Shown here piece by piece: positions 2,840 through 35,973 of a DNA stretch of 35,973 nt (its first letter is position 1; each line of letters opens with the position of its first letter). A model generated the notes under the pieces. That model saw only the letters and a list, made by a program, of their open reading frames with translations, did no database searches and was not told where the DNA came from. Source of the stretch: a virus (Duplodnaviria; Heunggongvirae; Uroviricota; Caudoviricetes); the IMG/VR virus record IMGVR_UViG_3300014890_000016, positions 1 through 35,973 of that record. One strand, 5' to 3'. The translations under genes were made by a program, and so were the position numbers.

Positions 2840-2932
2840 CAGCACAAATAAAACACCAGATTAAATAAGAAAACGTGAAAACCATCCGAATTAGCGGAGG
2901 CATTCACACACGTAAATAATGGAGATACAAAA

Positions 2933-16754: not shown

Positions 16755-16852
16755 ACGACTCCCAACAACCGGGCGGGCGCGGTGGAGGTGTGCCGGCAAA
16801 AGCCATCAGCACACTGCGGAAACCGGTCAGTCCGCCTTTCCACGGAGTGAGC

Positions 16853-18540: not shown

Positions 18541-18559
18541 CAAAATCAGGAGACAAATT

Positions 18560-21457: not shown

Positions 21458-23553
21458 TGTCACAACAGCGCCTTGAATTACTTCTTGAACTGACAGACCG
21501 CCTGACAAGGCCGTTGCGCGCAGCCGGGCGACAGGTTCAGGGATTTGCTGCAACAAGTCGGGGGGCTTTTCGGGACATTGCTACCGGAGGCGCTGCACTC
21601 TGGGGAGTGGGTGCAGCCATTCAGGGTGCACTGATGCCAGCCATTGAAATGGACAGAGCGCTCGGTGAGGTGAAATCACTGGGCGTCGCAGAGTCCGGAT
21701 TGCGTAAACTCAGCCGCGCCGCTGTTGATTTCACTATGGAATACGGCGGAGCTGCGCAGGATTTTGTGCGTGCTTCTTACGACATCCAGTCAGCCATTGC
21801 CGGATTAACTGACGATGAGCTGTCACGCTTCACCACTGCATCAGCAACAGTGGCAGCAGCAACCAAATCCAGCAGCCAGACCATTACCGCCTACATGGGC
21901 ACCATGTACGGCATCTTTAAAGACCAGGCTGATGCCATAGGAAAAAGTAAATGGGTGGAGCAGATCGCCGGACAAACCGCCACTGCCGTGCAAATGTTTA
22001 AAACAACCGGCGATAACATGTCAGCGGCATTCACCACACTGGGTGCCAGTGCAAAAGCAGCCGGTATTGATGCGGCCGAGCAGTTCGCCGTACTGGGGCA
22101 ACTGCAGGCAACCATGAGTGGCAGCGAGGCTGGTACAAAATATAAATCCTTCCTGGCATCCGTTGGTAAAGCACAGAAAAAGCTGGGGCTTAATTTCGTG
22201 AATAAAGACGGCACGATGAAAAGTGTTGTCGAGATCATGAAACTTATCAGGGGCAAATTTGGTGATCTGTCAAAAGTGGCTGACTCTGATTTGCTGAAAA
22301 GCGCCTTTGGCTCCGATGAGGCTGTGGCCATGATTAAATTGCTCAATGCAGACATTGGCGGACTGGAAAAGAACATCGCCACGCTGGGCAATATCAAAGG
22401 TATGGATAAGGCTGTCGAAATGGCACAAGCCATGGCCGATCCGTGGGAACAGGCCGCTGCGATTATTAACGGCATTCGCATTGAAATTGGCACACAACTG
22501 TTACCCGTTCTGTATCCATTCATCCAGAAAAGCAACGAAGGCGGTAAATCCTTTGTTGCCTGGTTGCGTCTGTATCCAAACATCACACGTGCAATCGGCT
22601 TATTAAGCGCGGCACTTATTGGTGTTGCGGCGGTTGGCGCAACGGTCAATATCGTAATGGGGGTGGCGAAATTTATCTGGGTGGGATTACGCATGGTCTG
22701 GATGGCCGCAATCGCACCACTGAAATTAATCATCTTTCTGTATCGTGCCCTGAAAGTGGTTATGCTGGCGTTCTGTGCTACTGCCCGCATGGTCAGGGCA
22801 TTATATCTGGCGATGAGTATCGCCATGGGGGCGCACAATGTCAGGGCCAAAATTCAGATTGCACTGCTGAAACTGCAACGCATCGGTATGTGGCTTTATT
22901 CTGCCGCACTGGGCGCTGCAGCTGTGGCCATGAATATTTACACCGCTGTTACCGGTGGCGCAGCCGTTGCCACTCAGCTACTTTTCAGCCCGATAACGTT
23001 AATCATCCTGGCACTGGCTGCGCTGGGCGTGGGCATTTATTTTCTGATTACCCGCTGGGATGAGATCAAAGCGGCACTGATGGATACAGCCGCTTTTCAG
23101 TGGGTAACCAGTGTCATAAAAAATATAGCTGTATGGTTCGGCAATACCTGGAAAGGCATTAAAAGCGGCTGGGATGCCGTTATTAATTATTTTTCCACCC
23201 GCTCACCGCTGGAAATATTTCAGGATTATGTCCGTCTGATTAATAAATTATTTTCAGGACTATGGCGCACAATTATCGGTATGTTCAGCTCAGCATTCAG
23301 ATGGATCGCTGACAAGCTGAATATGCTCCCGGGTATAAATATTGATGTACCAGAAATTACAGATAACAGTGAGGGTTCTGTATTAACCGGTGGAAAAGTC
23401 ATTAGCGCCGGGCCAGGTGGCATTGCGGCAAAAATGCAAAATAACAGCGACAGCCAGACCACAATTGATAACTCCCGTCGCGTGGTCAATGTCAATGTGC
23501 AGGATGCATCCCCGGCCCACCTTAATGAATGGATGGAGCTGCATGCATACTGA
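21457..23553 (+). CDS. T: Tail tape measure protein
   Basis: 698 aa; Ala/Gly-rich coiled-coil N-terminal half and hydrophobic segments in the C-terminal half; follows the chaperone pair. Confidence 0.8.
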   Translation: MSQQRLELLLELTDRLTRPLRAAGRQVQGFAATSRGAFRDIATGGAALWGVGAAIQGALMPAIEMDRALGEVKSLGVAESGLRKLSRAAVDFTMEYGGAAQDFVRASYDIQSAIAGLTDDELSRFTTASATVAAATKSSSQTITAYMGTMYGIFKDQADAIGKSKWVEQIAGQTATAVQMFKTTGDNMSAAFTTLGASAKAAGIDAAEQFAVLGQLQATMSGSEAGTKYKSFLASVGKAQKKLGLNFVNKDGTMKSVVEIMKLIRGKFGDLSKVADSDLLKSAFGSDEAVAMIKLLNADIGGLEKNIATLGNIKGMDKAVEMAQAMADPWEQAAAIINGIRIEIGTQLLPVLYPFIQKSNEGGKSFVAWLRLYPNITRAIGLLSAALIGVAAVGATVNIVMGVAKFIWVGLRMVWMAAIAPLKLIIFLYRALKVVMLAFCATARMVRALYLAMSIAMGAHNVRAKIQIALLKLQRIGMWLYSAALGAAAVAMNIYTAVTGGAAVATQLLFSPITLIILALAALGVGIYFLITRWDEIKAALMDTAAFQWVTSVIKNIAVWFGNTWKGIKSGWDAVINYFSTRSPLEIFQDYVRLINKLFSGLWRTIIGMFSSAFRWIADKLNMLPGINIDVPEITDNSEGSVLTGGKVISAGPGGIAAKMQNNSDSQTTIDNSRRVVNVNVQDASPAHLNEWMELHAY

Positions 23554-23893
23554 TAAACCGCTTTACATTGATTTGCTTATCACCGGTCGCAATTTCACGC
23601 TGAACAGCGCCGCCGAACCGGTGCTGTGCAACAACAGGGAAAGCATTGCCCAGGACTGCCAGCATGCCATCATTGAAAGCGGACTGGCAACGCGCCTGCT
23701 GGCTGAAAAAAGCCCGACGCTTCGCGCCGACATTATGATGCAGATGACACTGCTGATTGAAGATGATGAGCGCATCACACCCGGCACGGTCAGTGTGACA
23801 GAGGAAACCCCGCTTTCTGGCCGCCTGCTGATTAGCGCCCACACCGAAGATTTTTTTGATCCCCTGACTTTTACGGTATCTCTTGATGATTAA
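23543..23893 (+). CDS. Putative baseplate protein, gpW / Mu gp46 position
   Basis: 116 aa, overlaps the tape measure stop and precedes the J-like gene. Assigned by size and position. Confidence 0.4.
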   Translation: MHTDKPLYIDLLITGRNFTLNSAAEPVLCNNRESIAQDCQHAIIESGLATRLLAEKSPTLRADIMMQMTLLIEDDERITPGTVSVTEETPLSGRLLISAHTEDFFDPLTFTVSLDD

Positions 23894-25070
23894 CGGCAAA
23901 CCAACCGCAGATTACGAGCGCATTCTGGCTGATAACGGCATGCCGGTAACCGAAGAACAGGCGCGTGCTGAATTTGAGGCCATCGTTAAAGACGAAGGGC
24001 TTATCACTAACACATCCCGCATGTCGCCGTTCTGGCGGTTGATTACAGCCATCACCACAAAGCCCGTGATGTGGCTGAAAGATGCGCTGGTTAATGTGGT
24101 AATGAAAAACCTGTTTCTGGCAAGTGCCAGCGGTGTATTTGTGGATGTTTTTGCATGGGCGGTAAACCTGCAGCGCAAGGCTGCCACGCACGCAGCTGGC
24201 GTGATTCGTTTCACAAAAGACGACATTGATCACGCGGTCACCGTACCGGCTGGTACGCAGATTCAGACAGAACGCATTAACGGCGTGATTTATACGCTGA
24301 CCGTTGTCAGGGATACCATTATTCCGGCAGGAATACTCAGCATGAACATCGATGTTTCTGCTGAACAGGCCGGAGCCGGGTTTAACCTCGCGCCGGGGTA
24401 TTACCGCATTCTTCCGGTGGCGATTAATGGTATCGCCGGCGTTGAGAACGACGAAAACTGGCTGACCACGCCGGGGGCCAACGAAGAAAGCGACGACGAA
24501 CTGCGTGATCGCGTTCGCAATCAGTTTAATCTTGCCGGTGCTTATCACACCGACGCTGTTTACCGGGGATTAATTGCCGGTGTTGCCGGCATCAGTGCCG
24601 ACCGCATCTATTTTTTGCATGACGCACCACGCGGCCCCGGCACAGCAAACGCTTACATTCTGCTGGATACCGGCATCGCATCCGGACCGTTCGTTGATGC
24701 AGTAAACGCATTTATTAACGATGAAGGTCATCACGGACACGGCGATGATTTGCGCTGTTTTTCCATGCCTGAAACGCGCCATGCCCTGACCGTGACACTC
24801 TGGCTGTATGCAACACTGAACCTCAACGCTGAAGAGATACAGGCTTTATTACGCAACGTAGAGAATCTGGTCCGCTGTGCGTTTCGCGAAAACAGCGATT
24901 ATGACGTTCAGAAAACATGGCCGTACAGCCGTTTCAGCATGTCCCGACTGGGCGAAGAGATCCACCAGGTATTTCCACAGGTGGAATCGGTCACGTTTTC
25001 CCTTCCGGATATTCTCAGCGACCTGGCTGTACCTCGCCTGGAATCCCTTATCGTGGAGGTGGGATCATGA
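23886..25070 (+). CDS. J: Baseplate J-like protein
   Basis: 394 aa; position before the I-like gene and the tail fibre. Confidence 0.6.
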   Translation: MINGKPTADYERILADNGMPVTEEQARAEFEAIVKDEGLITNTSRMSPFWRLITAITTKPVMWLKDALVNVVMKNLFLASASGVFVDVFAWAVNLQRKAATHAAGVIRFTKDDIDHAVTVPAGTQIQTERINGVIYTLTVVRDTIIPAGILSMNIDVSAEQAGAGFNLAPGYYRILPVAINGIAGVENDENWLTTPGANEESDDELRDRVRNQFNLAGAYHTDAVYRGLIAGVAGISADRIYFLHDAPRGPGTANAYILLDTGIASGPFVDAVNAFINDEGHHGHGDDLRCFSMPETRHALTVTLWLYATLNLNAEEIQALLRNVENLVRCAFRENSDYDVQKTWPYSRFSMSRLGEEIHQVFPQVESVTFSLPDILSDLAVPRLESLIVEVGS

Positions 25071-25702
25071 ATATTCCGGAGATGCCCGAATTCCCTCTCC
25101 CAACCTGGATGAACAAAGGAGAGCCATTAACACTGGCACATTCTTCACGTCGTTACTGGGAGAAGGTCTACAGTTGGCTGACATGGCCACTACAGCAAAT
25201 TGATGTTGATACCTGCGCAGAGCCCCTGCTTAATCTGCTGGCCTATCAGCGCAACATCACCCGCTTCAGTGGGGAGCCAGTTTCATTATTTCGCCTAAGG
25301 GTAAAACACGCGTTTATCAACGCTCAGGACTCGGGCGAACGCGCAGGCTTCGAACGCATCTTTAAGCGTCTTGGCGTGGGAGAGGTAAAAACTCTGGAAC
25401 GACAGCTGCAGCATGACTGGGACGTTATCTTACTGCGTATCAATGACACCCAGTTAAGCGAAAGCAATGCCCTGATGATGCAGCTCGTGCGCCAGTATGG
25501 CCGTACATGTAGACGTTATTTCTTTCAGGTGATTAATACAACCACCGCTCACCTGACAGCCGGCACATTTAGCGGTGATTACCGGTATTACGTGGCAAAA
25601 GCGACGATACGTCCAGGCACAATCAGATTAAACGCATCATTACAGGCAGGGCATTACGGATTATCCGTGGAGCATTACACATTACAGGCAGGTAACGCAT
25701 GA
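25067..25702 (+). CDS. I: Tail protein I-like
   Basis: 211 aa; ATGA-coupled to J and immediately upstream of the tail fibre gene as in P2. Confidence 0.5.
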   Translation: MNIPEMPEFPLPTWMNKGEPLTLAHSSRRYWEKVYSWLTWPLQQIDVDTCAEPLLNLLAYQRNITRFSGEPVSLFRLRVKHAFINAQDSGERAGFERIFKRLGVGEVKTLERQLQHDWDVILLRINDTQLSESNALMMQLVRQYGRTCRRYFFQVINTTTAHLTAGTFSGDYRYYVAKATIRPGTIRLNASLQAGHYGLSVEHYTLQAGNA

Positions 25703-27564
25703 GCACAATCATTACTGAACAATATGAAAACTGGTGCGCAGATCAGATTATCAGCGATAAACCCGCACGCCCGGACATGTTTGTTTTTGCGTATATCCCG
25801 GGACAGGATGAGTCTGCCGAAATTCCCCGTGACGAGGCTTTGCCCGATGAATCCATGATTCAGTACCGCGCGCCGGTCACTCAGTATGGACTACTGTCCC
25901 CGAATGCTGCCGCATTTTCCATTATTCTGGACACCACTATCGGTGACTTCGAATATAACTGGATTGGCCTCATGAACGAAGAAAGCGGCGTGCTCTGCAT
26001 GATTGCACACACACCGCGCCAGCAAAAAATTAAAACAGCAAACGGCGTGCAGGGAAATAACCTTATTCGCACCTTTGCCATGGAGTTTGACGGTGCGGCT
26101 GCGGCAATGCATATCGATGTCAGTGCTGATGTCTGGCAGATTGATTTTACTGCCCGACTCGCGGGAATGGATGAATCACGTCGCCTGTTGGCATTTGATC
26201 ACTACGGAGAAGCCGCTTTTCTGGGGGGCGGTTTTCAGGTCAGTTATCAGGACGGTACCGCCACTGTTGCCGCCGGCGTGGGTTATGTGGGGGGGCTGCG
26301 CGTCAGTCTGCGCGAACCTTACAGCCTGCCGGCTGCGGTCGGGGATACTCTCTGGATTGATGCAAGCTGGCAGGGATTTGTTACCGGCGAATGGAATACC
26401 GTTTTTACGTTCTGCGCCCGCAGGGAACATGCGTCCTATACAGACGGTAACGGCTTCCGACACTTTGTCGCGCCACTTGCAAAAATGACAGCAGACGGCC
26501 CACAGGACCTGCGCCCGGAGACACCCGACGAGGAACAAAGCAATGCACTGGCAGAGCACGAAAAATCCCGCAGACACCCGGATGCCACGCTGAACGAGAA
26601 AGGCTTTGCGCAGTACAGCAACGACACCGACAGCGACGCAGAGGACCGCGCCGCCACATCAAAGGCAGTAAAAGCCGTAATGGATAAGGCAAAAGGCGCT
26701 GTTGAGCGTGCCGGTGATACCATGACCGGCGAGCTGAAAATCCGTGGTGTTAATGCGCTGCGAATTTTCAACAAAGCCTTTGGTCTGATTTTTCGCCGTT
26801 CGGAAGAGTGCCTGCACCTTATCCCTACCAGTGAAGGTCAGGGCGAGAATGGCGATATTGGCCCCCTGCGTCCGTTCACCATTAATCTGCGGACGGGTGA
26901 AATATCCATGTCGCATAAAGTGTCTGTTGGCGGTGGCTCTCAGGTGAATGGTGCGCTGGGTATCGGTGTTCAGAACGCACTGGGCGGTAACTCAATTGCT
27001 CTCGGGGATAGCGATACAGGTATAAAACAAAACGGCGACGGCATTCTGGATGTTTATGCGAATGGACAGCATGTATTTCGTTTCCAGAATGGTGTGGCGA
27101 TAGCGTTAAAAAATATTCAGGCCGGAAATGCTAAAAAATTCACGTTATCCAGCGCCAACAACTCAACGAAAAACGCAACGTTTAATTTATGGGGCAATTC
27201 GTCCCGTCCTGTGGTTGCAGAGCTTGGTGATGATTCCGGCTGGCATTTTTACAGCCAGAGAAATACGGATAACAGCATAACGTTTGCTGTAAACGGTCAG
27301 ATGGTTCCATCAGACTACAGAAATTTTGATGCCCGCTACCAGACAAAGACAGGTGGCGTGCAGAATTTTCAGTACACCAGTGAGGTGTTTTATAACCCTG
27401 GTGGGAATGAGCGCAGCTGGACGTTTCGGGCACCTTCTGGTTGTGTTTTATCAGGCATTAATGTTCAGGACACTGGCAGTAACTCTGCAGATAATATCGG
27501 TGGCGTGTATTACAAGCAGGCTCAGATTTATATTAATGGTGCATGGCGATCCGTATCAGGTTAA
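25699..27564 (+). CDS. H: Tail fibre protein, P2 gpH-like C-terminal part
   Basis: 621 aa; AEHEKSRRHPDATLNEKGFAQYS and NALGGNSIALGDSDTGIKQNGDGILDVYANGQHVFRFQNGVAIALKNIQAG...WHFYSQRNTDNS match P2 gpH closely. Confidence 0.85.
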   Translation: MSTIITEQYENWCADQIISDKPARPDMFVFAYIPGQDESAEIPRDEALPDESMIQYRAPVTQYGLLSPNAAAFSIILDTTIGDFEYNWIGLMNEESGVLCMIAHTPRQQKIKTANGVQGNNLIRTFAMEFDGAAAAMHIDVSADVWQIDFTARLAGMDESRRLLAFDHYGEAAFLGGGFQVSYQDGTATVAAGVGYVGGLRVSLREPYSLPAAVGDTLWIDASWQGFVTGEWNTVFTFCARREHASYTDGNGFRHFVAPLAKMTADGPQDLRPETPDEEQSNALAEHEKSRRHPDATLNEKGFAQYSNDTDSDAEDRAATSKAVKAVMDKAKGAVERAGDTMTGELKIRGVNALRIFNKAFGLIFRRSEECLHLIPTSEGQGENGDIGPLRPFTINLRTGEISMSHKVSVGGGSQVNGALGIGVQNALGGNSIALGDSDTGIKQNGDGILDVYANGQHVFRFQNGVAIALKNIQAGNAKKFTLSSANNSTKNATFNLWGNSSRPVVAELGDDSGWHFYSQRNTDNSITFAVNGQMVPSDYRNFDARYQTKTGGVQNFQYTSEVFYNPGGNERSWTFRAPSGCVLSGINVQDTGSNSADNIGGVYYKQAQIYINGAWRSVSG

Positions 27565-27577
27565 TTAAGGAGAAATA

Positions 27578-28120
27578 ATGGAACTCGTAAACGTTACGCG
27601 TTACTACCCTGAAGACATGCCTTATGGTGAAGGCATTCAGTATTTCCGTAGTGAAGACGGGCAGGATTTTTATGAATCACTGGATAAATTCACGAAGAAA
27701 TACAAGCTGTGCACACATCCTGAAACCGGCGTTATTTATTCCATGGCGGAAGATGTATCCCGCCTTTATCCCGTTGGTTTTACCATTGTGGAAGTGGATG
27801 AACTACCGGAAGGATTTTGTATAGAAGCGCGCTGGTATTATAAAGACGGTGAAGTACTGCCGGTCCCTGTTGACTACCGGCAGCAGGCAGAGTCGGAGCG
27901 TGCGCGCCTGACAGTGATTGCCGAACGGGAAATATCCGATAAGAAGACAGATTTACTTCTGGGGATCATCAGCGATGAAGAAAAAGAAAAACTGACAGCC
28001 TGGCGCATTTACGCGAAATCGCTGCAGGCGATGGATTTCAGCCAGATTACCGATAAATCATCGTATGCCACAATTGCATGGCCGGAATTACCGCAGGATA
28101 TTAACGAGAATAAAAAATAA
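27578..28120 (+). CDS. G: Tail fibre assembly chaperone, gpG/Tfa family
   Basis: 180 aa; C-terminal SDEEKEKLTAWRIYAKSLQAMDFSQ...IAWPELP matches the Tfa consensus. Confidence 0.8.
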   Translation: MELVNVTRYYPEDMPYGEGIQYFRSEDGQDFYESLDKFTKKYKLCTHPETGVIYSMAEDVSRLYPVGFTIVEVDELPEGFCIEARWYYKDGEVLPVPVDYRQQAESERARLTVIAEREISDKKTDLLLGIISDEEKEKLTAWRIYAKSLQAMDFSQITDKSSYATIAWPELPQDINENKK

Positions 28121-29172
28121 TGAGCGCGCTGTTGACGAAAGCATTTGAGAAATGGGTTGCTGAATGCGCCGCCAGTAATTTACCGGCGCGACCTGACTCC
28201 ATTGTTTTTGCACTGATGGAAAGGGAACCATCCAGAGATGATGAAGTTGTCCCCCCTGAAAAAATCACACACACGGTAAATAATCTGCGCTATGGAAAAC
28301 TGGATCCAAACAGCATTGTCTGTAGTGCCGTTGTTGCTGATAACGAGACATTCACTTACGACTGGATTTGCCTGGTCCATCAACCCAGCAACACACTCTG
28401 CGGCGTAATTAAAACCCCGGTTCGCCACAAACTGACCGGCGAAACACTTATCCGCAATTTTGCTGTTATTTATAGTGGACTGGCCCAGGCGGCACACATC
28501 ACTGTACCTCCGGAAAGCTGGCAATTGGATCTTTTTCCTGAATTAAACAAAAAAGCACCATTGCACAGCCCCTCACTCACCGGGGAACCAACTACGCCAA
28601 CTCCTCCCGAGGATGCCGCAGATACCGAAATAGCAAATGCGAAATTTGTCCGCAAGCTACTTAAAGAAATGAGCGATTCTTTATCTGCCCCTTCTGTTTC
28701 GGGTGATCCCAAAAATTTACTGAAAACACAATCTGGCGCTTTATTTGTTGATGGCGCTCACCCGATCATCCCCAAAATGCTCGTAAGCACCATGAACTCC
28801 AATCTGGATTCATTTAAAAGCCTGCCCGATGGTTCGCGTGTTTATACCCTGAAGCTGGATGTATCAAACCCCATCGGGCAATCCTCAGTTGGCGGTATCG
28901 GAATCGCTGTTTCAGCGATGATTGAGCCGCGTTATCTCTATCAGAACCAGAACCGACAGTACATTCCTGCGCAGTATTTTGTCGGCTCTGTCTCTGCAAA
29001 TACGCGAACAATCACTATCGGAATACAGGTGGTGATGCCTGATAAACCTTACTATGCACTGGATATGTCAACACTGAAAGATATTGCCGGCGCAGATGAT
29101 GGGCCGCTCCCCTGTGTTGTGGTTATAAAAACACTAGCAGGGACAACGTTGCGTCAGAACGGAATGGGATAA
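28120..29172 (+). CDS. Second tail-fibre-like protein (shared N-terminal domain, distinct C-terminus)
   Basis: 350 aa; N-terminal ~150 aa align with the H N-terminus (PARPD..VFA, LIRNFA, SWQLD); contains KKAPLHSPSLTGEPTTPTPPED...TEIANAKFV, similar to the P2 gpH collar motif. Confidence 0.55.
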   Translation: MSALLTKAFEKWVAECAASNLPARPDSIVFALMEREPSRDDEVVPPEKITHTVNNLRYGKLDPNSIVCSAVVADNETFTYDWICLVHQPSNTLCGVIKTPVRHKLTGETLIRNFAVIYSGLAQAAHITVPPESWQLDLFPELNKKAPLHSPSLTGEPTTPTPPEDAADTEIANAKFVRKLLKEMSDSLSAPSVSGDPKNLLKTQSGALFVDGAHPIIPKMLVSTMNSNLDSFKSLPDGSRVYTLKLDVSNPIGQSSVGGIGIAVSAMIEPRYLYQNQNRQYIPAQYFVGSVSANTRTITIGIQVVMPDKPYYALDMSTLKDIAGADDGPLPCVVVIKTLAGTTLRQNGMG

Positions 29173-29196
29173 CATTTGAACGTACAGGAAAATGAG

Positions 29197-29919
29197 ATGA
29201 AATATTCTGTATGGGAGCACGCCATTCTGCGTCCGGCTCCGATAGCCATCACCTGTTCAGTGGTTTGCCTCCACCCATGGTCAGAAAATACGGGAAACAT
29301 TACACCATCAGGGCGTTACCTCAGCCCGGATAATGCTGTATCCGCGCTTTTACCTTATCTGACAGAAAACACTGAAAAAGACGTTGTGGCGCTGTTATTT
29401 TGCGCTCCGTCTGCTGGCGAGTTTTTATCACTGGCCAGACAGTTTTCGGGTGCACTTCCATTGGCGGAAGTGGGAAGAATGTCCCGCATGATCTCCAGTC
29501 AGCTTTCGCTGGCCGTGAGTAAAATGCAGCTCCCTGCAAAACCGGCAACCACACTTCCTGCAGAAGTCACGCTGTCCACACAAACCACCCGCAGCATGAC
29601 GCGGGCAGCGACTATTGCGCGGGCTGCGATCCCGACCGCTGTATCTCCGGAAACATTATCCTCGTCTCTGAATCAGTTCAGAATCGCGAGAGATAAGGCA
29701 CTACAGGAAATCACCGACCAGCAGGCCGCAATTCAGAAAAACGCGTGTCCGGTGTGGCGTTTTTTTTATACGGGCACACTAAATCAGGTTGCAGCACTGA
29801 TAAAAAAAAATATTCCACATCCGGAATGGGTTTTTACAGCTGTGATGCTGTTTGTCGGTAATGATCTTTCATCACTAAGAGAATCACTACATGACCCAGA
29901 TGATCGTTCTTGCACTTGA
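29197..29919 (+). CDS. Hypothetical protein downstream of the second fibre gene
   Basis: 240-aa ORF with AGGAA Shine-Dalgarno; Ala/Ser/Thr-rich centre; no Tfa signature. Confidence 0.4.
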   Translation: MKYSVWEHAILRPAPIAITCSVVCLHPWSENTGNITPSGRYLSPDNAVSALLPYLTENTEKDVVALLFCAPSAGEFLSLARQFSGALPLAEVGRMSRMISSQLSLAVSKMQLPAKPATTLPAEVTLSTQTTRSMTRAATIARAAIPTAVSPETLSSSLNQFRIARDKALQEITDQQAAIQKNACPVWRFFYTGTLNQVAALIKKNIPHPEWVFTAVMLFVGNDLSSLRESLHDPDDRSCT

Positions 29920-30466
29920 CGGAGAAGCCATTCTGTTACGCAACATAACCGTCAGCGCCACCATGCAACTACCGGATAAAGATATGTCCGGACAGTCAAC
30001 CAGCACCACCAGTGCCCAGCAGGGAAACAAGGCCAAGGAGCTACGCGTGTCGGGTGTTATTGATTTTAACGATGAAGCCATTCTGACCCGTATTTTTCAG
30101 CTTGCAGAAGCTACAGAAAGCAATGGGGCTAAAAAAACATACCGCATCGCCAACGCTACTGCTAAAGCGATTAATATGCGACAGGGTGTTTTTTCCGGCG
30201 GCATTGATGCCACGGAGCAGCAAGGCAAGATGCACTGGCAGGTCACCTTTACTCTCAGGGAAAAATTAAGCGTGCCGGAAAAAGCATCGGCACGCAGTGG
30301 CTCACAGAAAACAATTGCAAAACAGCAGACGCAGAACGGCAGCGAACAGGCGCCAGACAAAGGGATGAATACCCAGGATGCGTTCTGGAAAAATATCAAT
30401 GATGGTATTGGCTCCGGGCTGGACTGGATTGGCATCGGGAGCGTGAAAGAGGAAGGGAAAACATGA
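29891..30466 (+). CDS. Putative tail protein (gpU position)
   Basis: 191 aa directly upstream of and ATGA-coupled to the gpD-like hub gene. By position only. Confidence 0.35.
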   Translation: MTQMIVLALDGEAILLRNITVSATMQLPDKDMSGQSTSTTSAQQGNKAKELRVSGVIDFNDEAILTRIFQLAEATESNGAKKTYRIANATAKAINMRQGVFSGGIDATEQQGKMHWQVTFTLREKLSVPEKASARSGSQKTIAKQQTQNGSEQAPDKGMNTQDAFWKNINDGIGSGLDWIGIGSVKEEGKT

Positions 30467-32160
30467 AATTAACCCAGCGCTGTATGATTAATGGTGAGCT
30501 GGCGGAAATTGCCGATATCAGCCTTGTTCTTACCCTGAATGCTGCCGGGCGCGGCTTCATTTCTGTTAATAATCTGCCCCCCCAAAAAAGCCTTGCCGGC
30601 GCAATGATACAAATTGATCTCGGCCGTAATGGTGAGGCATGGCGCTATTTCTCCGGCTACATTGAGCGCGATCAACCCGCCGAAAATGGCTCACGCCGCC
30701 TTTTTATCCGTGAAGCAGCTGCCGTGCTGGATTTTGATTTCCCCTGCTCCATGCAACATCCAACGTTACGGGATGTACTCGATAATCTGGGTAAACAAAG
30801 CGGCATCGTTTTCATCACGCCAGATGCGGATTACGTCAGCACACCGACACCTTACATCACCCACAGCGGCAGCGGAGCACAACTGCTCAGCCAGTTGGGG
30901 CGAGCATTCAGTATCAGCGATTACGTCTGGCATCCAATGCCGGACGGTTCCGTATTTGTGGGAAGCGCACCGGATTCACGGTTTGCCAGTATTACCATGC
31001 CGGATATTCCGCAACAATACACACTCGGGCAAAGCGGCGGAAACAGCATCGACATCATGTTTATGGAAACTGTGCGACCGGGCGTGAACCTTCCGGCCGG
31101 GCGCATTACCCGTGTAGCCCTCAACAACGAGAAAATGACCCTGACATGGGAACGCCTTACCGCCACGGGTAGCCCTGTTTCCAAATCACCATTACGCAGA
31201 CAGATGGAAACACAGTTCCCGGAACTGGCCAGCGGCACTCTGCATACCCGGCTGGCGCGCGTCATTGCGCCAACGGAATCTGTCACCCTGGGCGATATTG
31301 CCGACAGCTTCCGCCCACGCTACGCCGTCGATGTGCAACTGCTTGATGAGAATGGCAACGATAAAAGCGATACGCCTGTTTATCCGGCTGTACCACTCCC
31401 CGTCCCGATGGCTGGTAGCGAGGCGGGATGTTTTGCCTACCCGCCAGCAGGCACCATCGTGGAAATATCCAACATTGAAGGGCGACCGGATAAACCTGTC
31501 ATCAGGCAAATCTTACCCGCGGGCCATAACCTGCCTGATGTAAAGCCCGGCGAACAGCTGCAGCAACAGCGCGCAGAGGTGTTTCAGCGCGTCACGACTG
31601 ACGGAAGCTGGTACAGAGAAACTGACCAGCAAATCAGGGAGCATTCAGCCAGGCGAACCATTAACAGCGATCAGGAAGAACGCACAACAACAACCAGAAC
31701 AACAACAGTCCAGGCAAACGACATAACCAGTGTTCTTGGTACCAGTAAGCTGATGACAGGCCAGACAGAACACCTTACTACCGGCAATTATGCGATCGCA
31801 GCCGGTGAGCATATCCAGATGGTAGCGCAGAATTTGCTGACTCAACTCAAAGGGGCGATATCCACTATTGAGCATGACCTCACCGAAAACGTGGGAGGCC
31901 GCAGAACATGCAGGGCAGACAGCGGTCTGGAATTTACCGCCCCGACAGTATTTATTGGTCGCGGCGGCTCGCGGGAAAAGTCCGGACTTAACCTGCTGAC
32001 GTTGCTGATCGATATTCTGGACCTGGTTCAGTTGCTGGCCACACATACAGCAAACCACACCCATAGCAACACTGGCACGCCAATGAACAGCAGCGAATTT
32101 GCAGCAGATGCCCTGCAGGCGACGAGCCTGCGCGAAAAATACGGCGACATTATCGCCTGA
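30463..32160 (+). CDS. D: Baseplate hub protein, gpD-like, with C-terminal extension
   Basis: 565 aa; N-terminal region resembles the late-control-D family pattern; C-terminal LLATHTANHTHSNTGTP is His-rich; last gene of the late operon, followed by a terminator. Confidence 0.5.
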   Translation: MKLTQRCMINGELAEIADISLVLTLNAAGRGFISVNNLPPQKSLAGAMIQIDLGRNGEAWRYFSGYIERDQPAENGSRRLFIREAAAVLDFDFPCSMQHPTLRDVLDNLGKQSGIVFITPDADYVSTPTPYITHSGSGAQLLSQLGRAFSISDYVWHPMPDGSVFVGSAPDSRFASITMPDIPQQYTLGQSGGNSIDIMFMETVRPGVNLPAGRITRVALNNEKMTLTWERLTATGSPVSKSPLRRQMETQFPELASGTLHTRLARVIAPTESVTLGDIADSFRPRYAVDVQLLDENGNDKSDTPVYPAVPLPVPMAGSEAGCFAYPPAGTIVEISNIEGRPDKPVIRQILPAGHNLPDVKPGEQLQQQRAEVFQRVTTDGSWYRETDQQIREHSARRTINSDQEERTTTTRTTTVQANDITSVLGTSKLMTGQTEHLTTGNYAIAAGEHIQMVAQNLLTQLKGAISTIEHDLTENVGGRRTCRADSGLEFTAPTVFIGRGGSREKSGLNLLTLLIDILDLVQLLATHTANHTHSNTGTPMNSSEFAADALQATSLREKYGDIIA

Positions 32161-32200
32161 ACACCAGACATAAAAGCCACATAAACGCCCCATCACGCAA

Positions 32201-32226
32201 CGCACGGTCCCGGCCGTGCGTTTTCC
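32201..32226 (+). terminator. Rho-independent terminator ending the late operon
   Basis: CGCACGG-loop-CCGTGCG hairpin followed by TTTT. Confidence 0.5.
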
Positions 32227-32702
32227 TATCCACCACCTGATTAATGCGTTCTGCGTGCCATTCTGGCGCTGTATGCACACACCGCGTAAACGGTGTGACG
32301 TAAAGCGTGAGGTGACGTAAACCGCGCTACCCCCTCCAACCCGCGGGTTTCGTGTCGAAACAGTTTTTCAGTTTTCTGCCGTGCAAAAATGACCGCCAGC
32401 CCGCGCAGTAACTAAGGGAAAAGCGAAGATCTGAAATTTCACGCCGGGAAATTTTTTGCAGTTTTCAGAGAGATTTTTACGATCCCATAAATGGCAGGAG
32501 AAATAAAACAGTATGATATTAAAAGAATTTTCATGCTTTACGCGAGACGAAAAACGATCACGAAAGGATCGCATCAAACAACCATCAAACAAAGAAGCCA
32601 GACGCGGCGCGGACTGCGTAAAATCAAGAGCCAGAATCAAACTGAAAAAAGGATCAATTCCGTGCTCTGATCGCACATGACGATCTACGCAGTAACAGGA
32701 CG

Positions 32703-32728
32703 AAAAAAACCGGCGCGAACGCCGGCGG
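32703..32728 (-). terminator. Rho-independent terminator for a leftward transcript
   Basis: On the minus strand CCGCCGGCG-TTCG-CGCCGG followed by seven T; no minus-strand CDS ends here, so it would terminate a short RNA. Confidence 0.45.
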
Positions 32729-32806
32729 AAGCGTGTATCAAATACGTAATTGGGTAATGTCTAAGGTCGGGAATTTTACATCAGAAAACTGACAAGTCTC
32801 AACGGA

Positions 32807-32836
32807 TTGAAACAAGGGAAAAAACCAGGCTAGAAT
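32807..32836 (+). promoter_or_regulatory. Candidate sigma70 promoter upstream of the hok-like ORF
   Basis: TTGAAA, 18-bp spacer, TAGAAT; about 150 nt upstream of the toxin start codon. Confidence 0.35.
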
Positions 32837-32988
32837 TCGCACGGGTGCCTTTCGGCTGATGGCTGGAGGGAATACCCGAAGGCCGGATGTGGAAAGGCCC
32901 CGGAAAACATTTTTGTTTAACCGAGGCCCTAACCATCTACCCTAGACAAGTGATAGGTTAGCGCCTCCCTGAAAAAGGAGCAAGCGCT

Positions 32989-33129
32989 ATGTCGCAAAAA
33001 TCGCTTACGGCCATTACGTTCTGCGTAACGGCAATCCTCATCATCTGGATGCTGCACGGTTCACTGTGTGAAATACGGATGAGCTTCTGGGGAGCGGAGT
33101 TTGCGGCGTTCTTACAGTGTAAGCAGTAA
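32989..33129 (+). CDS. hok: Hok/Gef-family type I toxin peptide (46 aa)
   Basis: MSQKSLTAITFCVTAILIIWMLHGSLCEIRMSFWGAEFAAFLQCKQ: one TM helix then the SLCEIR motif and an AAFL.CK C-terminus as in HokA/PndA; GGAG Shine-Dalgarno. Below the ORF-track cutoff. Confidence 0.7.
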   Translation: MSQKSLTAITFCVTAILIIWMLHGSLCEIRMSFWGAEFAAFLQCKQ

Positions 33130-33214
33130 GGAAACCGCGACGGGGGAGCAATCCCCCGTCAATCGGTTGCCAGGGTAAGGTCGATAAGGCACCCTATCTC
33201 GCAAACCTGAATGC

Positions 33215-33246
33215 AAAAAGCCCGCAGGATTAATCGCGGGCTTTTT
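33215..33246. terminator. Bidirectional Rho-independent terminator
   Basis: AAAAA-GCCCGC-loop-GCGGGC-TTTTT; ends the hok transcript and the convergent minus-strand gene. Confidence 0.55.
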
Positions 33247-33275
33247 ATTTCCAGAGAGGGTGGTTGGCTTACCGA

Positions 33276-33713
33276 TTATTCTTCATTTTCCTTTGACGTT
33301 ATTACCACAGTAGCCAGTTTATCAATCAGGCGCTCACACGCATCAACATCTTTGAGGTTTCTTAATTTGAGCTTTGCAGTTTTAGGCTCATCATCTCTGG
33401 TACAAAGGTGTAGCTCAACTTCAACATCATTCCTGTTTAACAACCCCATAATAACCCCTGCAAATTTTTTCGCCCGTGAGAGCAATTCGAACATAACACT
33501 AAGCATATCGGGTGCATTCGCAGAGAAGCAAGTCACGCGACCTATATCAAATCCATTATTTTGAAAATACTCCTCTATTGAAGAGGAAAGCTCTGAAGGG
33601 CATGTAATCCTGACACTTGCAAATCGGGACTGATGTAATGGTGTTCCCTTTAAATATTGCACTTGAAGCCTCCGCATTAAAACTACAGCACAAGTGAGGC
33701 CAAACAGCCCCAT
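33276..33713 (-). CDS. Hypothetical protein
   Basis: About 145-aa ORF divergent from com; start uncertain (TTG 33719, ATG 33713 or ATG 33677); no family recognised. Confidence 0.45.
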   Translation of the reverse strand: MGLFGLTCAVVLMRRLQVQYLKGTPLHQSRFASVRITCPSELSSSIEEYFQNNGFDIGRVTCFSANAPDMLSVMFELLSRAKKFAGVIMGLLNRNDVEVELHLCTRDDEPKTAKLKLRNLKDVDACERLIDKLATVVITSKENEE

Positions 33714-33732
33714 GAACAAAATAGAAAACGCA

Positions 33733-33766
33733 GATCGATAATATAAAACCGATCGATAAAATCGAT
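33733..33766. promoter_or_regulatory. Three ATCGAT palindromes, two containing GATC, in a divergent promoter region
   Basis: ATCGAT at 33733, 33752 and 33761 between the leftward ORF and the com-methylase operon. Confidence 0.35.
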
Positions 33767-33814
33767 CAATTTGTTATCATACCGGCAGCAGTAACCACAT
33801 AAGAGGTGCCGCAA

Positions 33815-34012
33815 ATGACGCAAAATGTACGATGCAAAAATTGCAACAAACTACTTGCCCGCGCCTCATTTCACTACATTGAAATAAAATGTCCGCGCTG
33901 CAAAACACTTAACCAGATAACGAGAGCCATTGAGCACCCCACACACATGAGGAGCTATGACCGTGGGGATCGCAATCCAGCACCAACCAGCACATACACC
34001 GGAACACACTAA
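33815..34012 (+). CDS. com: Com-like zinc-finger translational regulator
   Basis: MTQNVRCKNCNKLLARASFHYIEIKCPRCKTL matches Mu Com (MKSIRCKNCNKLLFKADSFDHIEIRCPRCKRH); AAGAGG Shine-Dalgarno; 3' end overlaps the methylase gene as com overlaps mom in Mu. Confidence 0.7.
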   Translation: MTQNVRCKNCNKLLARASFHYIEIKCPRCKTLNQITRAIEHPTHMRSYDRGDRNPAPTSTYTGTH

Positions 34013-34748
34013 GGTTTATCAGACTGACAATGCCACGCTCTGTCGTGGGAATGCGCTGGAAATATTGCCGCTGATTGAGCCAGAAAGCATTGACGCCTTA
34101 ATCACTGATCCGCCTTACAGTTCGGGCGCGACACATAAGGCCGGACGCACCAACCATGGTAGCCATGCAAAATATCTGAACGGCGAGAGCCTTCACCGCT
34201 TTGATGGGTTCGCGGGTGAAAACATGGACGCCCGTTCGTGGGCTTACTGGACACAATTATGGATGGCACAGGCACACCGCGCAGTCAGGCCGGGCGGTTA
34301 TGCCCTGGTATTTACTGACTGGCGACAACTACCAGCTTTAACCGATGCGTTTCAGGCCAGTGGTTTTACATGGCGCGGCATCATTGCGTGGAACAAGGGG
34401 AGGGGGTCACGAACACCACATACCGGATATTTCCGGCATCAGTGCGAATACATCGTCTGGGGCAGCAAAGGCCATTTAGATAAATCGCCTTCGGGGCCGT
34501 TCGACGGCTGCATGACGTTCCCGGTTATCCCGTCAAAGAAAATGCACCCGACCGGAAAACCAGAAGAACTAATGGCAGAACTGGTCAGGACTGTGAATAG
34601 CGGCGGAACAGTCCTTGATCCTTTTATGGGGTCAGGGACAACGGGTGTGGCTGCACTTAAAGCAGGACGCAAATTTATTGGTATAGAAACCAGTGATCAT
34701 TATTTTGATGTAGCAACACAACGGCTCAAAACGGCGATCGAACCATAA
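33957..34748 (+). CDS. DNA methyltransferase, N6-adenine/N4-cytosine class
   Basis: 263 aa; catalytic DPPY (ALITDPPYSSG) precedes the SAM-binding FMGSGTTG motif; target base not determinable from sequence. Confidence 0.85.
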   Translation: MTVGIAIQHQPAHTPEHTKVYQTDNATLCRGNALEILPLIEPESIDALITDPPYSSGATHKAGRTNHGSHAKYLNGESLHRFDGFAGENMDARSWAYWTQLWMAQAHRAVRPGGYALVFTDWRQLPALTDAFQASGFTWRGIIAWNKGRGSRTPHTGYFRHQCEYIVWGSKGHLDKSPSGPFDGCMTFPVIPSKKMHPTGKPEELMAELVRTVNSGGTVLDPFMGSGTTGVAALKAGRKFIGIETSDHYFDVATQRLKTAIEP

Positions 34749-34792
34749 GACAAAGCCCGCAATGTTGCGGGCTTACTCTACCTCTCGAAAAT

Positions 34793-34815
34793 GTGGTCAC
34801 TGTGTGGACATACGC
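34793..34815. repeat. Putative attR core, imperfect copy of the int-end repeat
   Basis: GTGGTCACTGTGTGGACATACGC versus 11..35; about 21 of 23 positions match, then a 2-nt indel before TACGC; lies between the methylase terminator hairpin and the flk-like gene. Confidence 0.4.
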
Positions 34816-34977
34816 TGATACAAATCCTTTTATATCAATAAATTAAATCTTTGTTTTTTTCATCAACAAGGATTTTCACGTTTGTGTTACCTGTATGAGA
34901 CGAGAGTTAACCGGACAAGTGTGCCATAATCTCGCGGCCAGGCATACTTGCGAAGATTTCAGGTATAAGGATACGTA

Positions 34978-35973
34978 ATGATACAACCTATTTCCGGCCC
35001 TCCTCCTGGGCAACCACCAGGTCAGGGAGATAACCTGCCGTCTGGCGCGGGCAATCAGCCTTTATCCAGTCAGCAACGTACTTCGCTGGAAAGCTTAATG
35101 ACGAAAGTGACCTCACTGACGCAACAACAAAGAGCAGAACTGTGGGCGGGTATCAGGCACGATATTGGTCTGTCGGGAGATTCACCGCTGCTTTCGCGTC
35201 ACTTTCCTGCCGCTGAGCATAATCTGGCGCAACGTCTGCTGGCCGCGCAAAAAAGCCATTCTGCCCGCCAGCTTTTAGCGCAATTAGGGGAGTATTTACG
35301 TCTGGGGAATAATCGTCAGGCGGTCACGGATTATATCCGTCATAACTTTGGTCAGACGCCGCTGAATCAGCTCTCACCGGAGCAATTAAAAACCATTCTA
35401 ACCCTGTTGCAGGAAGGGAAGATGGTTATTCCGCAACCTCAGCAGCGCGAGGCGACCGACCGTCCGTTATTACCGGCGGAGCACAATGCGCTCAAACAGC
35501 TGGTGACCAAACTTGCGGCGGCAACGGGAGAACCCAGCAAGCAGATCTGGCAATCGATGCTGGAACTTTCCGGGGTGAAAGATGGCGAGTTAATTCCAGC
35601 GAAACTGTTTAACCATCTGGTGACCTGGCTACAGGCGCGTCAGACGCTAAGCCAGCAAAATACGCCGACGCTTGAATCACTCCAGATGGCGCTAAAACAA
35701 CCTTTAGATGCCAGTGAACTGGCGGCGTTATCGGCATATATCCAGCAGAAATATGGCCTTTCTGCGCAATCATCGCTTTCTTCTGCCCAGGCCGAGGATA
35801 TTCTTAATCAGCTTTATCAACGGCGGGTTAAAGGGATTGATCCGCGAGATATACAACCGCTGCTTAATCCTTTTCCACCGATGATGGACACGTTGCAAAA
35901 TATGGCAACGCGTCCCGCGCTGTGGTTACTGTTAGTCGCGATTATCCTGATGCTGGTCTGGCTGGTTCGTTAA
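34978..35973 (+). CDS. flk: Flk-like flagellar regulator with C-terminal membrane anchor (chromosomal)
   Basis: 331 aa; Pro/Gln-rich N-terminus MIQPISGPPPGQPPGQ and hydrophobic tail ALWLLLVAIILMLVWLVR, as recalled for enterobacterial Flk. Confidence 0.55.
   Translation: MIQPISGPPPGQPPGQGDNLPSGAGNQPLSSQQRTSLESLMTKVTSLTQQQRAELWAGIRHDIGLSGDSPLLSRHFPAAEHNLAQRLLAAQKSHSARQLLAQLGEYLRLGNNRQAVTDYIRHNFGQTPLNQLSPEQLKTILTLLQEGKMVIPQPQQREATDRPLLPAEHNALKQLVTKLAAATGEPSKQIWQSMLELSGVKDGELIPAKLFNHLVTWLQARQTLSQQNTPTLESLQMALKQPLDASELAALSAYIQQKYGLSAQSSLSSAQAEDILNQLYQRRVKGIDPRDIQPLLNPFPPMMDTLQNMATRPALWLLLVAIILMLVWLVR

What the first reader, a model, noticed from the sequence alone, without database searches (positions are those of the whole stretch)
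30463..32160. Enlarged gpD-like hub with a His-rich C-terminal tip
The hub gene is about 180 codons longer than P2 gpD and ends with HTANHTHSN, reminiscent of the metal-binding apex of spike proteins. No separate gpV-type spike gene was found, so this may be a hub-spike fusion analogous to VgrG.
Basis: inference. Interest (0 to 1): 0.4.

Follow-up and report, generated by a model that had tools for sequence, protein, structure and literature searches.

The report
Fused baseplate hub-spike of HP1-like prophage
This gene encodes the needle at the tip of a contractile phage tail, with the mounting hub and the piercing spike joined in one protein as in bacterial VgrG; that arrangement is normal for this phage group and has already been noted for phage HP1.

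Summary
The ORF at 30463..32160 (+), 565 aa, is real. It is the orthologue of orf35 of Haemophilus phage HP1 (PHROG 2258 "baseplate protein", E 1e-233) and closes the tail operon of an HP1/ESSI-2-type prophage. Fold search puts the whole protein on hub-spike fusion proteins (AlgoCIS, AnaCIS, Pvc8, Afp8, VgrG; E 1e-17 to 1e-12). The N-terminal ~235 aa alone match hub proteins (Mu gp44, T4 gp27, pyocin R2 hub). Weak but correctly ordered sequence hits mark a gp5/VgrG OB-fold (aa ~311-347) and a gp5-type beta-helix (aa ~390-500). No separate spike or PAAR gene was found. The hub part is smaller than P2 gpD, not larger. 565 aa is normal for the family. The protein is not His-rich and does not end at the motif: HTANHTHSN is aa 528-536, and only H532-x-H534 is conserved (44/44 homologues). 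That HxH aligns with the Fe-binding HxH of P2 gpV but sits in the turn of a predicted helical hairpin, not a gpV-type apex fold. The gpD-gpV fusion was already noted for HP1 (PMC10612066, Table S1). Relatives such as ACA1, phi3 and PV94 keep hub and spike as two genes. Low interest. Only the helical-hairpin HxH cap is structurally uncharacterised.

The parts
30463..32160 (+). Complete gene for the fused baseplate hub-spike protein (565 aa), orthologue of HP1 orf35 and K139 orf39. Its ATG overlaps the stop codon of the upstream gene (ATGA at 30463-30466).
   Evidence: ORF and overlap; phrog_2258, E 1.2e-233, full length; HP1 orf35, 42% identity, same position at the end of the tail operon; full-length fold matches to VgrG and eCIS spikes
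30463..31167 (+). Hub domain, aa 1 to about 235 (gp27 / gpD / Mu gp44 / XkdQ fold class). It corresponds to the stand-alone hub genes ACA1 gp48, phi3 ORF 2501-3199 and PV94 gp46.
   Evidence: pLDDT 80-92; Mu gp44 1wru 1.9e-10, MuSo2 3cdd, PhiTE 9cuy_X, E217 8eon_E TMt 0.59, pyocin R2 hub 6u5h, T4 gp27 1k28_D; BFVD 'Phage protein D', 'Late control GPD', and a 243-aa hub with TMt 0.75; split homologues
31180..31512 (+). Start of the spike half (aa ~240-285, conserved FPEL..G.HLPR.ARV segment that opens the stand-alone spike ORFs) followed by the OB-fold domain (aa ~285-350).
   Evidence: alignment with the stand-alone spikes ACA1 gp49 and phi3 gp34; VgrG1 4mtk, aa 317-368, E 0.18; TIGR01646, aa 312-363, E 3.4e-4, below cut-off; VgrG entries, E 0.01-0.05; PF04717 Phage_base_V, aa 311-347, E 0.011, below cut-off
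31630..31962 (+). Probable triple-stranded beta-helix, aa ~390-500. Boundaries are approximate and the monomer model is unreliable here.
   Evidence: family profile positions 409-498 against the T4 gp5 C-terminal beta-helix, E 0.003-0.009, about 10 PDB sequences; PF22178 Gp5_trimer_C, aa 393-445, E 0.015, below cut-off; some homologues carry PF22178 or PF06715; pLDDT below 50, as expected for an intertwined trimer modelled as a monomer
31984..32157 (+). C-terminal cap, aa 508-565: a strongly hydrophobic helix (510-531), the HxH-containing turn, then an amphipathic helix (543-564). It is predicted to be an antiparallel helical hairpin.
   Evidence: helices; cap model pLDDT 80, pTM 0.60; only generic helical-hairpin matches, TM 0.55-0.66, no spike apex; conservation; 157 representatives in 1.84 billion, almost always at the extreme C-terminus of proteins of ~250-340 or ~550-610 aa
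32044..32070 (+). The conserved core is H532-T-H534 (nt 32056-32064) followed by N-T-G-x-P.
   Evidence: translation; H532 and H534 in 44/44, T537/G538/P540 at 95% or more, H528 in only 34%; HxH kept in HP1, K139, phi3 and ACA1, and aligned to P2 gpV H197-K-H199
29891..30466 (+). Upstream, translationally coupled partner gene, the HP1 orf34 homologue (baseplate complex protein; possibly the P2 gpU equivalent).
   Evidence: PF25759 HP1_ORF34, E 1.9e-53; Hardies et al.: gpU homology uncertain; RefSeq 'baseplate complex protein'

Best explanation
The gene encodes the central hub-spike protein of the contractile-tail baseplate of an HP1/ESSI-2-type (Peduoviridae, HP1 subgroup) prophage. One polypeptide does the work that P2 divides between gpD and gpV, Mu between gp44 and gp45, and T4 between gp27, gp5 and gp5.4.

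By analogy with all solved homologues it would form a trimer. The N-terminal ~235 aa would form the hub that seats the spike on the end of the tail tube and tape measure and nucleates the wedge proteins (the J, I and DUF2590 genes at 23553-25702). Next come an OB-fold, an intertwined triple beta-helix, and a C-terminal cap.

In the cap, three helical hairpins are predicted to pack into a bundle, which would bring three H532-x-H534 turns together at the distal end. Six His side chains there could hold a buried metal ion (Fe in gpV) that staples and sharpens the tip, so no separate PAAR-type tip protein would be needed. On sheath contraction the spike is driven through the outer membrane and then leaves the tube end so that DNA can exit.

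Shown here: gene, family, fold class, domain order, motif conservation, absence of a separate spike gene, and existence of split homologues. Inferred: trimer, metal binding, hairpin-bundle geometry, and role in penetration.
For: - Family and synteny: phrog_2258, full length, E 1e-233. Same last-gene position as HP1 orf35, K139 orf39 and the ESSI-2 gene.
- Fold: the top PDB matches are full-length hub-spike fusions: 7aef_q 8e-18, 7b5h 2e-17, VgrG 9jg9/8gra/4mtk, Pvc8 9qgm/6j0m and Afp8 6rbk. Hub-only proteins follow. Viral hub proteins match in BFVD.
- Domain-order sequence signals: OB-fold at aa ~311-368 and gp5 beta-helix at ~390-500.
- Split homologues break exactly at aa ~235/240.
- HxH is invariant in 44/44 homologues and in distant members at 28-40% identity, and aligns to gpV H197/H199.
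- Literature rule: a C-terminal HxH in a spike means a built-in Fe apex and no tip protein (PMC12407873 citing Browning 2012).
- HP1 orf35 has been described as a gpD+gpV fusion (PMC10612066 Table S1).
- No gpV or PAAR gene elsewhere in the window.
Against: - No Pfam family reaches its curated cut-off. The OB-fold and beta-helix sequence hits are all marginal (E 1e-2 to 3e-4).
- Profile comparison with P2 gpD and gpV finds nothing.
- The C-terminal half of the full-length model has low confidence (pLDDT 30-65). Global TM-scores to VgrG-type proteins are only ~0.33 with very large rmsd, so the full-length match rests on local 3Di similarity.
- The cap model is a monomer prediction of what should be a trimer. 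It resembles no solved spike apex.
- Metal binding is untested.
- ORF33 (29176-29919) has no assigned function and was not modelled, so a non-canonical tip or spike partner is not fully excluded.
Confidence: 0.85

Rival explanations
1. It is a hub-spike fusion, but the conserved helical-hairpin cap is not a self-sufficient metal apex. Instead it is a docking platform for another virion protein that forms the real tip or a plug, such as the product of the uncharacterised orf33 homologue at 29176-29919 or the orf34 homologue. In this reading the HxH has a purely structural or assembly role.
For: - The cap fold, as predicted, is unlike the gpV/gp138 apex.
- orf33 and orf34 are always adjacent to the gene and have no established role.
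- The orf33 homologue is present in ACA1 virions by mass spectrometry.
- PV94 swaps this cap for a Cys-containing end, which shows the tip is modular.
Against: - HxH near the C-terminus of spikes correlates with the absence of a tip protein.
- The HxH aligns with the gpV Fe ligands.
- No PAAR-like gene is present.
- orf34 has been tentatively equated with gpU, a tube-proximal component rather than a tip.
Confidence: 0.1
2. It is only an enlarged gpD-type hub. On this view the C-terminal 325 aa are a non-spike appendage, such as a fibre-docking or lytic domain, and the true spike is encoded elsewhere or is absent.
For: No Pfam spike family passes its threshold. The model of this half has low confidence.
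Against: - The best fold matches cover the full length of VgrG, Pvc8 and Afp8.
- OB-fold and gp5 beta-helix hits come from independent libraries and fall in the right order.
- Some homologues carry PF22178 or PF06715 and are named gp5/Vgr OB-fold proteins.
- Stand-alone versions of this half are annotated as, and match, gpV 3QR8 by HHpred.
- No enzymatic domain was detected.
Confidence: 0.03
3. The fused reading frame is an artefact, for example a sequencing or assembly frameshift that joins two genes which are really separate, as in ACA1, phi3 and PV94.
For: Split forms with overlapping ORFs exist in relatives.
Against: The uninterrupted ~550-580-aa ORF is found in HP1, HP2, K139, ESSI-2 and more than 100 independent homologues from many genera. 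It is also found in 48 complete E. coli genomes at 80% or more coverage. The junction region is conserved in frame.
Confidence: 0.02

Closest known systems
Haemophilus phage HP1 orf35 (UniProt P51739) and its orthologues K139 orf39 and the Cronobacter phage ESSI-2 'baseplate protein' (PHROG 2258)
   Same: Same family (42-47% identity over the full length), same size class, same position as the last gene of the tail operon after the orf33 and orf34 homologues, and the same C-terminal helix-HxH-helix cap. HP1 orf35 was described as a fusion of the P2 gpD and gpV homologues.
   Different: Only sequence divergence. This copy is from an E. coli-type prophage found in about 1% of complete E. coli genomes and is annotated there as a hypothetical protein.
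T6SS VgrG and eCIS spikes Afp8 / Pvc8 / AlgoCIS Alg8-type (PDB 4mtk, 8gra, 9jg9, 6rbk, 6j0m, 9qgm, 7aef)
   Same: A single-chain hub, OB-fold and beta-helix architecture. These are the best full-length fold matches, E 1e-17 to 1e-12. There is also a weak OB-fold sequence match.
   Different: About 10-14% identity. The hub part is much shorter (~235 aa against ~370-400). There is no Phage_GPD, VgrG or TIGR family membership at the curated cut-offs. VgrG, Afp8 and Pvc8 end in a blunt beta-helix capped by a separate PAAR-type protein, whereas here there is a built-in HxH cap and no PAAR gene.
Phage P2 gpD (hub) plus gpV (spike with Fe-loaded apex; PDB 3QR7/3QR8)
   Same: Same two functions. The HxH followed by a Gly/Pro-rich segment aligns with gpV H197-K-H199. 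Both obey the 'HxH means no tip protein' rule. The head module of this prophage is P2-like.
   Different: P2 has two separate genes in different operons. There is no detectable sequence similarity. The gpV apex is not a helical hairpin, and here the HxH lies between two predicted helices and is followed by 29 more residues.
Split HP1-group versions: Pseudoalteromonas phage ACA1 gp48 ('cell puncturing device mounting domain') plus gp49 ('tail spike'); Pseudomonas phage phi3 unannotated hub ORF plus gp34; Vibrio phage PV94 gp46 plus gp47
   Same: They are homologous to the two halves, with the break at the position of aa ~235/240 of this protein. ACA1 and phi3 spikes carry the same cap and HxH.
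   Different: They are two overlapping genes rather than one. The PV94 spike has a different, Cys-containing C-terminus without HxH.

Membership tests
HP1 orf35 / PHROG 2258 baseplate hub-spike family | Full-length significant match to the family profile | tested here: met
   phrog_2258, E 1.2e-233, aa 1-565 on profile 1-544 of 544. tblastn to HP1, HP2, K139 and ESSI-2, E 1e-77 to 1e-150.
HP1 orf35 / PHROG 2258 baseplate hub-spike family | Conserved gene neighbourhood: last gene of the tail operon, directly after the orf33 and orf34 homologues | tested here: met
   PF25759 HP1_ORF34 lies immediately upstream with overlapping stop and start codons. The order is the same in HP1, K139, ESSI-2 and ACA1.
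VgrG / gp27-gp5 type hub-spike fusion (architecture class) | gp27/gpD-like hub fold at the N-terminus | tested here: met
   Confident model of aa 1-240. Foldseek probability 1.0 to Mu gp44, MuSo2, T4 gp27, pyocin hub and the VgrG N-terminal part, and to BFVD Phage protein D / GPD.
VgrG / gp27-gp5 type hub-spike fusion (architecture class) | gp5-type OB-fold following the hub | tested here: inconclusive
   Consistent but sub-threshold hits: PF04717 E 0.011 (16.4 bits against cut-off 23.8), TIGR01646 E 3.4e-4 (19.7 against 121.8), VgrG1 PDB E 0.01-0.2. The model in this region has pLDDT 50-70.
VgrG / gp27-gp5 type hub-spike fusion (architecture class) | Trimeric intertwined beta-helix | tested here: inconclusive
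   Profile match to the T4 gp5 beta-helix at E 0.003-0.009. PF22178 E 0.015, below cut-off. The monomer model is unreliable here. Oligomeric state cannot be tested with these tools.
T6SS VgrG proper (TIGR01646 / TIGR03361, Pfam Phage_GPD) | Score above the curated family cut-offs | tested here: not met
   TIGR01646 19.7 bits against 121.8. TIGR03361 16.2 against 186.35. No Phage_GPD hit. It is not a VgrG family member, only architecturally analogous.
P2 gpD (Phage_GPD) family | Detectable sequence homology to gpD | tested here: not met
   hhalign probability 0.2%. tblastn E above 4. No Pfam PF05954 hit.
gpV / gp138-type iron-loaded spike apex | HxH motif near the C-terminus, conserved across the family | tested here: met
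   H532-T-H534 in 44/44 homologues and in HP1, K139, phi3 and ACA1. It aligns with gpV H197-K-H199.
gpV / gp138-type iron-loaded spike apex | Apex domain fold as in 3QR7/3QR8/3PQH | tested here: not met
   The cap is predicted as an antiparallel helical hairpin (pLDDT 80). Foldseek finds no spike apex, and all hits have E above 3. Caveat: this is a monomer prediction.
gpV / gp138-type iron-loaded spike apex | Buried Fe ion coordinated by six His of the trimer | not testable with these tools
   This needs metal analysis or a structure. It is inferred only from the motif (for the rule).

The most novel reading that the evidence does not exclude
The C-terminal 58 residues may be a distinct, structurally uncharacterised kind of spike tip. 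In this reading a trimer of alpha-helical hairpins forms a six-helix bundle, and its three HxH turns make a His6 metal site at the very point of the needle. That would be a helical solution to the problem that gpV solves with a beta apex and that T4 and T6SS solve with a PAAR cap. The module is confined to HP1-group spikes (157 cluster representatives in 1.84 billion) and is exchangeable, since PV94 carries a Cys-type tip instead.
Probability: 0.4. Interest if true: 0.35.

Novelty: new member of a known kind. Interest (0 to 1): 0.2.

Why it matters
The main value is for annotation. RefSeq labels this gene "hypothetical protein" in E. coli genomes, and most phage records label it only "baseplate protein". 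It can be named confidently as the baseplate hub-spike (cell-puncturing) protein. It also shows that within a single phage group (the HP1 subgroup of Peduoviridae) the hub and spike occur both fused, as in VgrG, and as two genes. That makes the group a convenient natural system for asking what fusion changes in baseplate assembly. The helical-hairpin HxH cap would add a further tip architecture to the known set (gpV apex, PAAR) if confirmed, but this is an incremental point for specialists.

Tried and rejected
- Direct sequence link to P2: hhalign of the 44-sequence family profile against P2 gpD and gpV gave nothing. tblastn of P2 gpV, gpD, gpU, gpX and gpW against the window gave only noise. 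The 'gpD-like' label therefore cannot rest on sequence.
- Pfam on the full protein gave no hit. On the spike half alone it gave only sub-threshold hits. On the last 126 aa it gave nothing.
- PDB sequence search with the single protein gave only E ~0.2 hits. The profile search improved these to E ~0.003-0.05. Its top hit, the designed 'Bagel' propeller 8prj, is a repeat artefact on a short DGxxYVGS segment and was discarded.
- The full-length AF2 monomer model did not resolve the beta-helix (pLDDT below 50 for aa 353-448).
- Foldseek with the cap model returned only generic helical hairpins. It cannot link the cap to any spike or fibre structure.
- I considered that PV94 gp48 (65 aa) might be a separately encoded cap. 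Its sequence is unrelated and has no HxH, so this was rejected.
- I considered that the fused ORF might be a frameshift artefact. This was rejected because the uninterrupted ORF is widespread.
- P0123 and P0128, from the cap search, are tail-fibre N-terminus plus spike C-terminus chimeras. They are probably deleted prophages or misassemblies and were not used as evidence.
Full report
**Observation**

The window has an ATG-initiated ORF at 30463..32160 on the + strand encoding 565 aa. Its start codon overlaps the stop of the upstream gene (ATGA). The string HTANHTHSN is present at nt 32044-32070, which is aa 528-536.

Three details in the finding are inaccurate.
- The protein does not end with the motif. 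29 further residues follow.
- It is not His-rich: 12 His in 565 residues, and 3 in the last 45.

One HxH is expected by chance 0.25 times in a protein of this composition, and 0.026 times in the last 60 residues. The occurrence alone therefore proves little. What matters is that H532 and H534 are invariant in 44 of 44 homologues down to 47% identity. They are also kept in HP1 orf35, K139 orf39, phi3 gp34 and ACA1 gp49 at 28-40% identity.

**Context**

The window is a prophage with a P2-like head module and an HP1-like tail module. The features are:

| Coordinates | Feature | Evidence |
|---|---|---|
| 18476-19708 | sheath | DUF2586 / phrog_907 |
| 19705-20160 | tube | Phage_HP1_Orf24 |
| 20164-20460 | holin | phrog_175 |
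| 20570-20911 | endolysin | Peptidase_M15_4 |
| 20976-21269 | tail assembly chaperone | Phage_TAC_10 |
| 21457-23553 | tape measure | PhageMin_Tail / phrog_28 |
| to 23893 | small wedge-region protein | DUF2590 |
| 23883-25070 | baseplate J | Baseplate_J |
| to 25702 | gpI-like protein | Tail_P2_I |
| 25699-27564 | tail fibre | Phage_tail_fib |
| 27578-28120 | fibre assembly protein | Caudo_TAP |
| 28120-29172 | second fibre | Phage_tail_fib N-terminus |
| 29176-29919 | orf33 homologue | phrog_1677, function unknown |
| 29891-30466 | orf34 homologue | PF25759 |
| 30463-32160 | target gene | phrog_2258 |

HP1, K139, ESSI-2 and ACA1 have the same orf33-orf34-orf35 arrangement at the end of the tail operon.

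The target matches PHROG 2258, 'baseplate protein', over its whole length (E 1.2e-233). It is 42-47% identical to the HP1, HP2 and ESSI-2 proteins. HP1 orf35 is 533 aa and the homologues are 550-582 aa, so 565 aa is the normal family size rather than an enlargement.

Near-identical DNA occurs in 64 of 5,426 complete E. coli genomes, where RefSeq calls the gene 'hypothetical protein'.

**What it is**

An AlphaFold2 model built from 44 homologues is confident for aa 1-240 (pLDDT 80-92) and poor for aa 350-450. The poor region is expected for a monomer model of an intertwined trimer.

Foldseek against the PDB gives single-chain hub-spike proteins as its best matches, aligned over about the full length:
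- AlgoCIS 7aef_q (8e-18) and AnaCIS 7b5h (2e-17).
- T6SS VgrG 9jg9, 8gra, 4mtk and 9mlp.
- Pvc8 9qgm and 6j0m, and Afp8 6rbk.

Hub-only proteins follow: Mu gp44 1wru, MuSo2 3cdd, PhiTE, E217, pyocin R2 hub and T4 gp27. Mu gp45 spike also appears, at 8e-3. Global TM-scores are only ~0.33 because the spike half of the model is not folded properly. In the viral library the hub part matches 'Phage protein D', 'Late control GPD', '43 kDa tail protein' and XkdQ-type proteins. That list includes a 243-aa stand-alone hub at TM 0.75.

Sequence signals are individually weak but fall in the expected order.
- aa 311-368 match the VgrG/gp5 OB-fold: PDB VgrG1 E 0.18, TIGR01646 E 3.4e-4, PF04717 E 0.011, and E 0.01-0.05 with the family profile.
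- aa ~390-500 match the T4 gp5 C-terminal triple beta-helix: E 0.003-0.009 on about ten gp5 entries, and PF22178 E 0.015.

None of these reaches a curated cut-off. Some homologues do carry PF22178 or PF06715, and sources name some of them 'baseplate assembly protein V' or 'Gp5/Vgr OB-fold domain protein'.

**Independent support from split homologues**

In three relatives the same two halves are separate, overlapping genes:
- Pseudoalteromonas phage ACA1: gp48, 234 aa, plus gp49, 317 aa.
- Pseudomonas phage phi3: an unannotated 232-aa ORF plus gp34, 323 aa.
- Vibrio phage PV94: gp46 plus gp47.

The break lies at the position of aa ~235/240 of this protein.

Hardies et al. 2023 (PMC10612066) annotated ACA1 gp48 as the gpD-like 'cell puncturing device mounting domain' and gp49 as the gpV-like tail spike (HHpred to 3QR8).

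**No separate spike**

Pfam, PHROGs and NCBIfam scans of the tail-module ORFs found no Phage_base_V, gp5, VgrG or PAAR protein other than this one. tblastn of P2 gpV, gpD, gpU, gpX and gpW against all six frames gave only noise. The one tail-module protein without any assignment is the orf33 homologue.

**The tip**

After the beta-helix comes a 58-aa cap:
- A very hydrophobic helix, N510-N531, polar only at positions 513, 517, 520, 523 and 527.
- The turn H532-T-H534-S-N-T-G-T-P.
- An amphipathic helix, 543-564.

N510, L525, A526, A530, H532, H534, Y560 and I564 are invariant. A separate model of the cap has pLDDT 80 and pTM 0.60. It matches only generic antiparallel helical hairpins (TM 0.55-0.66, rmsd 2.3-3.8 Å, all E above 3) and no solved spike apex.

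MAFFT aligns the HxH and the following G-x-P with H197-K-H199...G-S-P of P2 gpV.

The literature rule is that spikes with a C-terminal HxH carry a built-in apex. In that apex a buried Fe ion is coordinated by three HxH copies, and such spikes were proposed to lack a separate tip protein (PMC12407873 citing Browning et al. 2012).

My inference is a trimer of helical hairpins whose three HxH turns meet at the distal point to form a His6 metal site. This shares the motif with gpV but not the predicted fold. It remains unverified because the prediction is a monomer and no metal data exist.

A profile of the cap finds only 157 cluster representatives among 1.84 billion. The match is almost always at the extreme C-terminus. 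Apart from short fragments, the protein lengths fall into classes of ~250-340 aa (stand-alone spikes) and ~550-610 aa (fusions). The PV94 spike ends instead in a Cys-containing segment without HxH, so the tip module is exchangeable.

**Mechanism (inferred from established knowledge of contractile injection systems)**

- The trimeric hub caps the tube and tape measure and nucleates the wedges.
- The OB-fold and beta-helix form the rigid needle.
- The metal-stapled cap forms the point.
- Sheath contraction drives the needle through the outer membrane.
- The complex then dissociates to open the tube. P2 gpV ends up in the periplasm.

**Verdict**

This is a new member of a known kind, and the fusion is already documented for HP1. 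Interest is low (0.2). The only point with some novelty is the helical-hairpin HxH cap, which has no solved counterpart.

Noticed in passing
window 25699-29172: There are two tail-fibre genes with related N-terminal collar domains (PF12571). The first is 621 aa (25699-27564) and is followed by a fibre assembly protein (27578-28120). The second is 350 aa (28120-29172), has a different C-terminal part (phrog_33169) and has no assembly gene of its own. This could be a dual-receptor or swapped-tip arrangement.
   Followed up: no
window 20976-21457: A Phage_TAC_10 tail assembly chaperone gene (20976-21269) is followed by a 48-codon ORF (21311-21457) that ends where the tape-measure gene starts. This may be a chaperone pair like P2 E/E', possibly joined by a programmed frameshift. 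No slippery site was sought.
   Followed up: no
window 23390-23893, 24917-25702, 16658-17347: The mechanical ORF starts are too far upstream. The family matches begin at aa ~55-66, so the real starts are probably near 23553 (just after the tape-measure stop), near 25070 and near 16850. The DUF2590 protein occupies the position of P2 gpW and HP1 orf28.
   Followed up: partly
window 32160-35973: Downstream of the last tail gene there are two minus-strand ORFs with no family match (32368-32676 and 33276-33719) and an N6/N4 DNA methylase (33957-34748). No tRNA gene is present in the window. The prophage end and attR were not located.
   Followed up: no
window 20570-20911: The endolysin is a small (113 aa) Peptidase_M15_4 (D-Ala-D-Ala carboxypeptidase-type) enzyme. 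This differs in size from the HP1 lys gene at the same position (561 nt, 186 codons), which suggests a lysis-cassette swap within the HP1 group.
   Followed up: no
L006 (Vibrio phage PV94) 3163-3927: The PV94 stand-alone spike gp47 lacks the helix-HxH-helix cap. It ends ...GVCTGATVCPFTGGGHVDVSTTVFAGK, which may be a different Cys/His tip module.
   Followed up: partly
L005 (Pseudomonas phage phi3) 2501-3199: The hub gene of phi3 (232 aa, homologous to aa 1-235 of the target) is not annotated in the RefSeq record. The orf34 homologue upstream is labelled 'nucleoid DNA-binding protein', and in PV94 it is labelled 'adenine glycosylase'. Both labels are likely misannotations.
   Followed up: partly
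proteins P0123 and P0128: Database proteins of 325 and 727 aa join a tail-fibre N-terminal collar domain directly to the C-terminal part of the hub-spike protein. They probably come from prophages with a fibre-to-orf35 deletion, or from chimeric assemblies.
   Followed up: no
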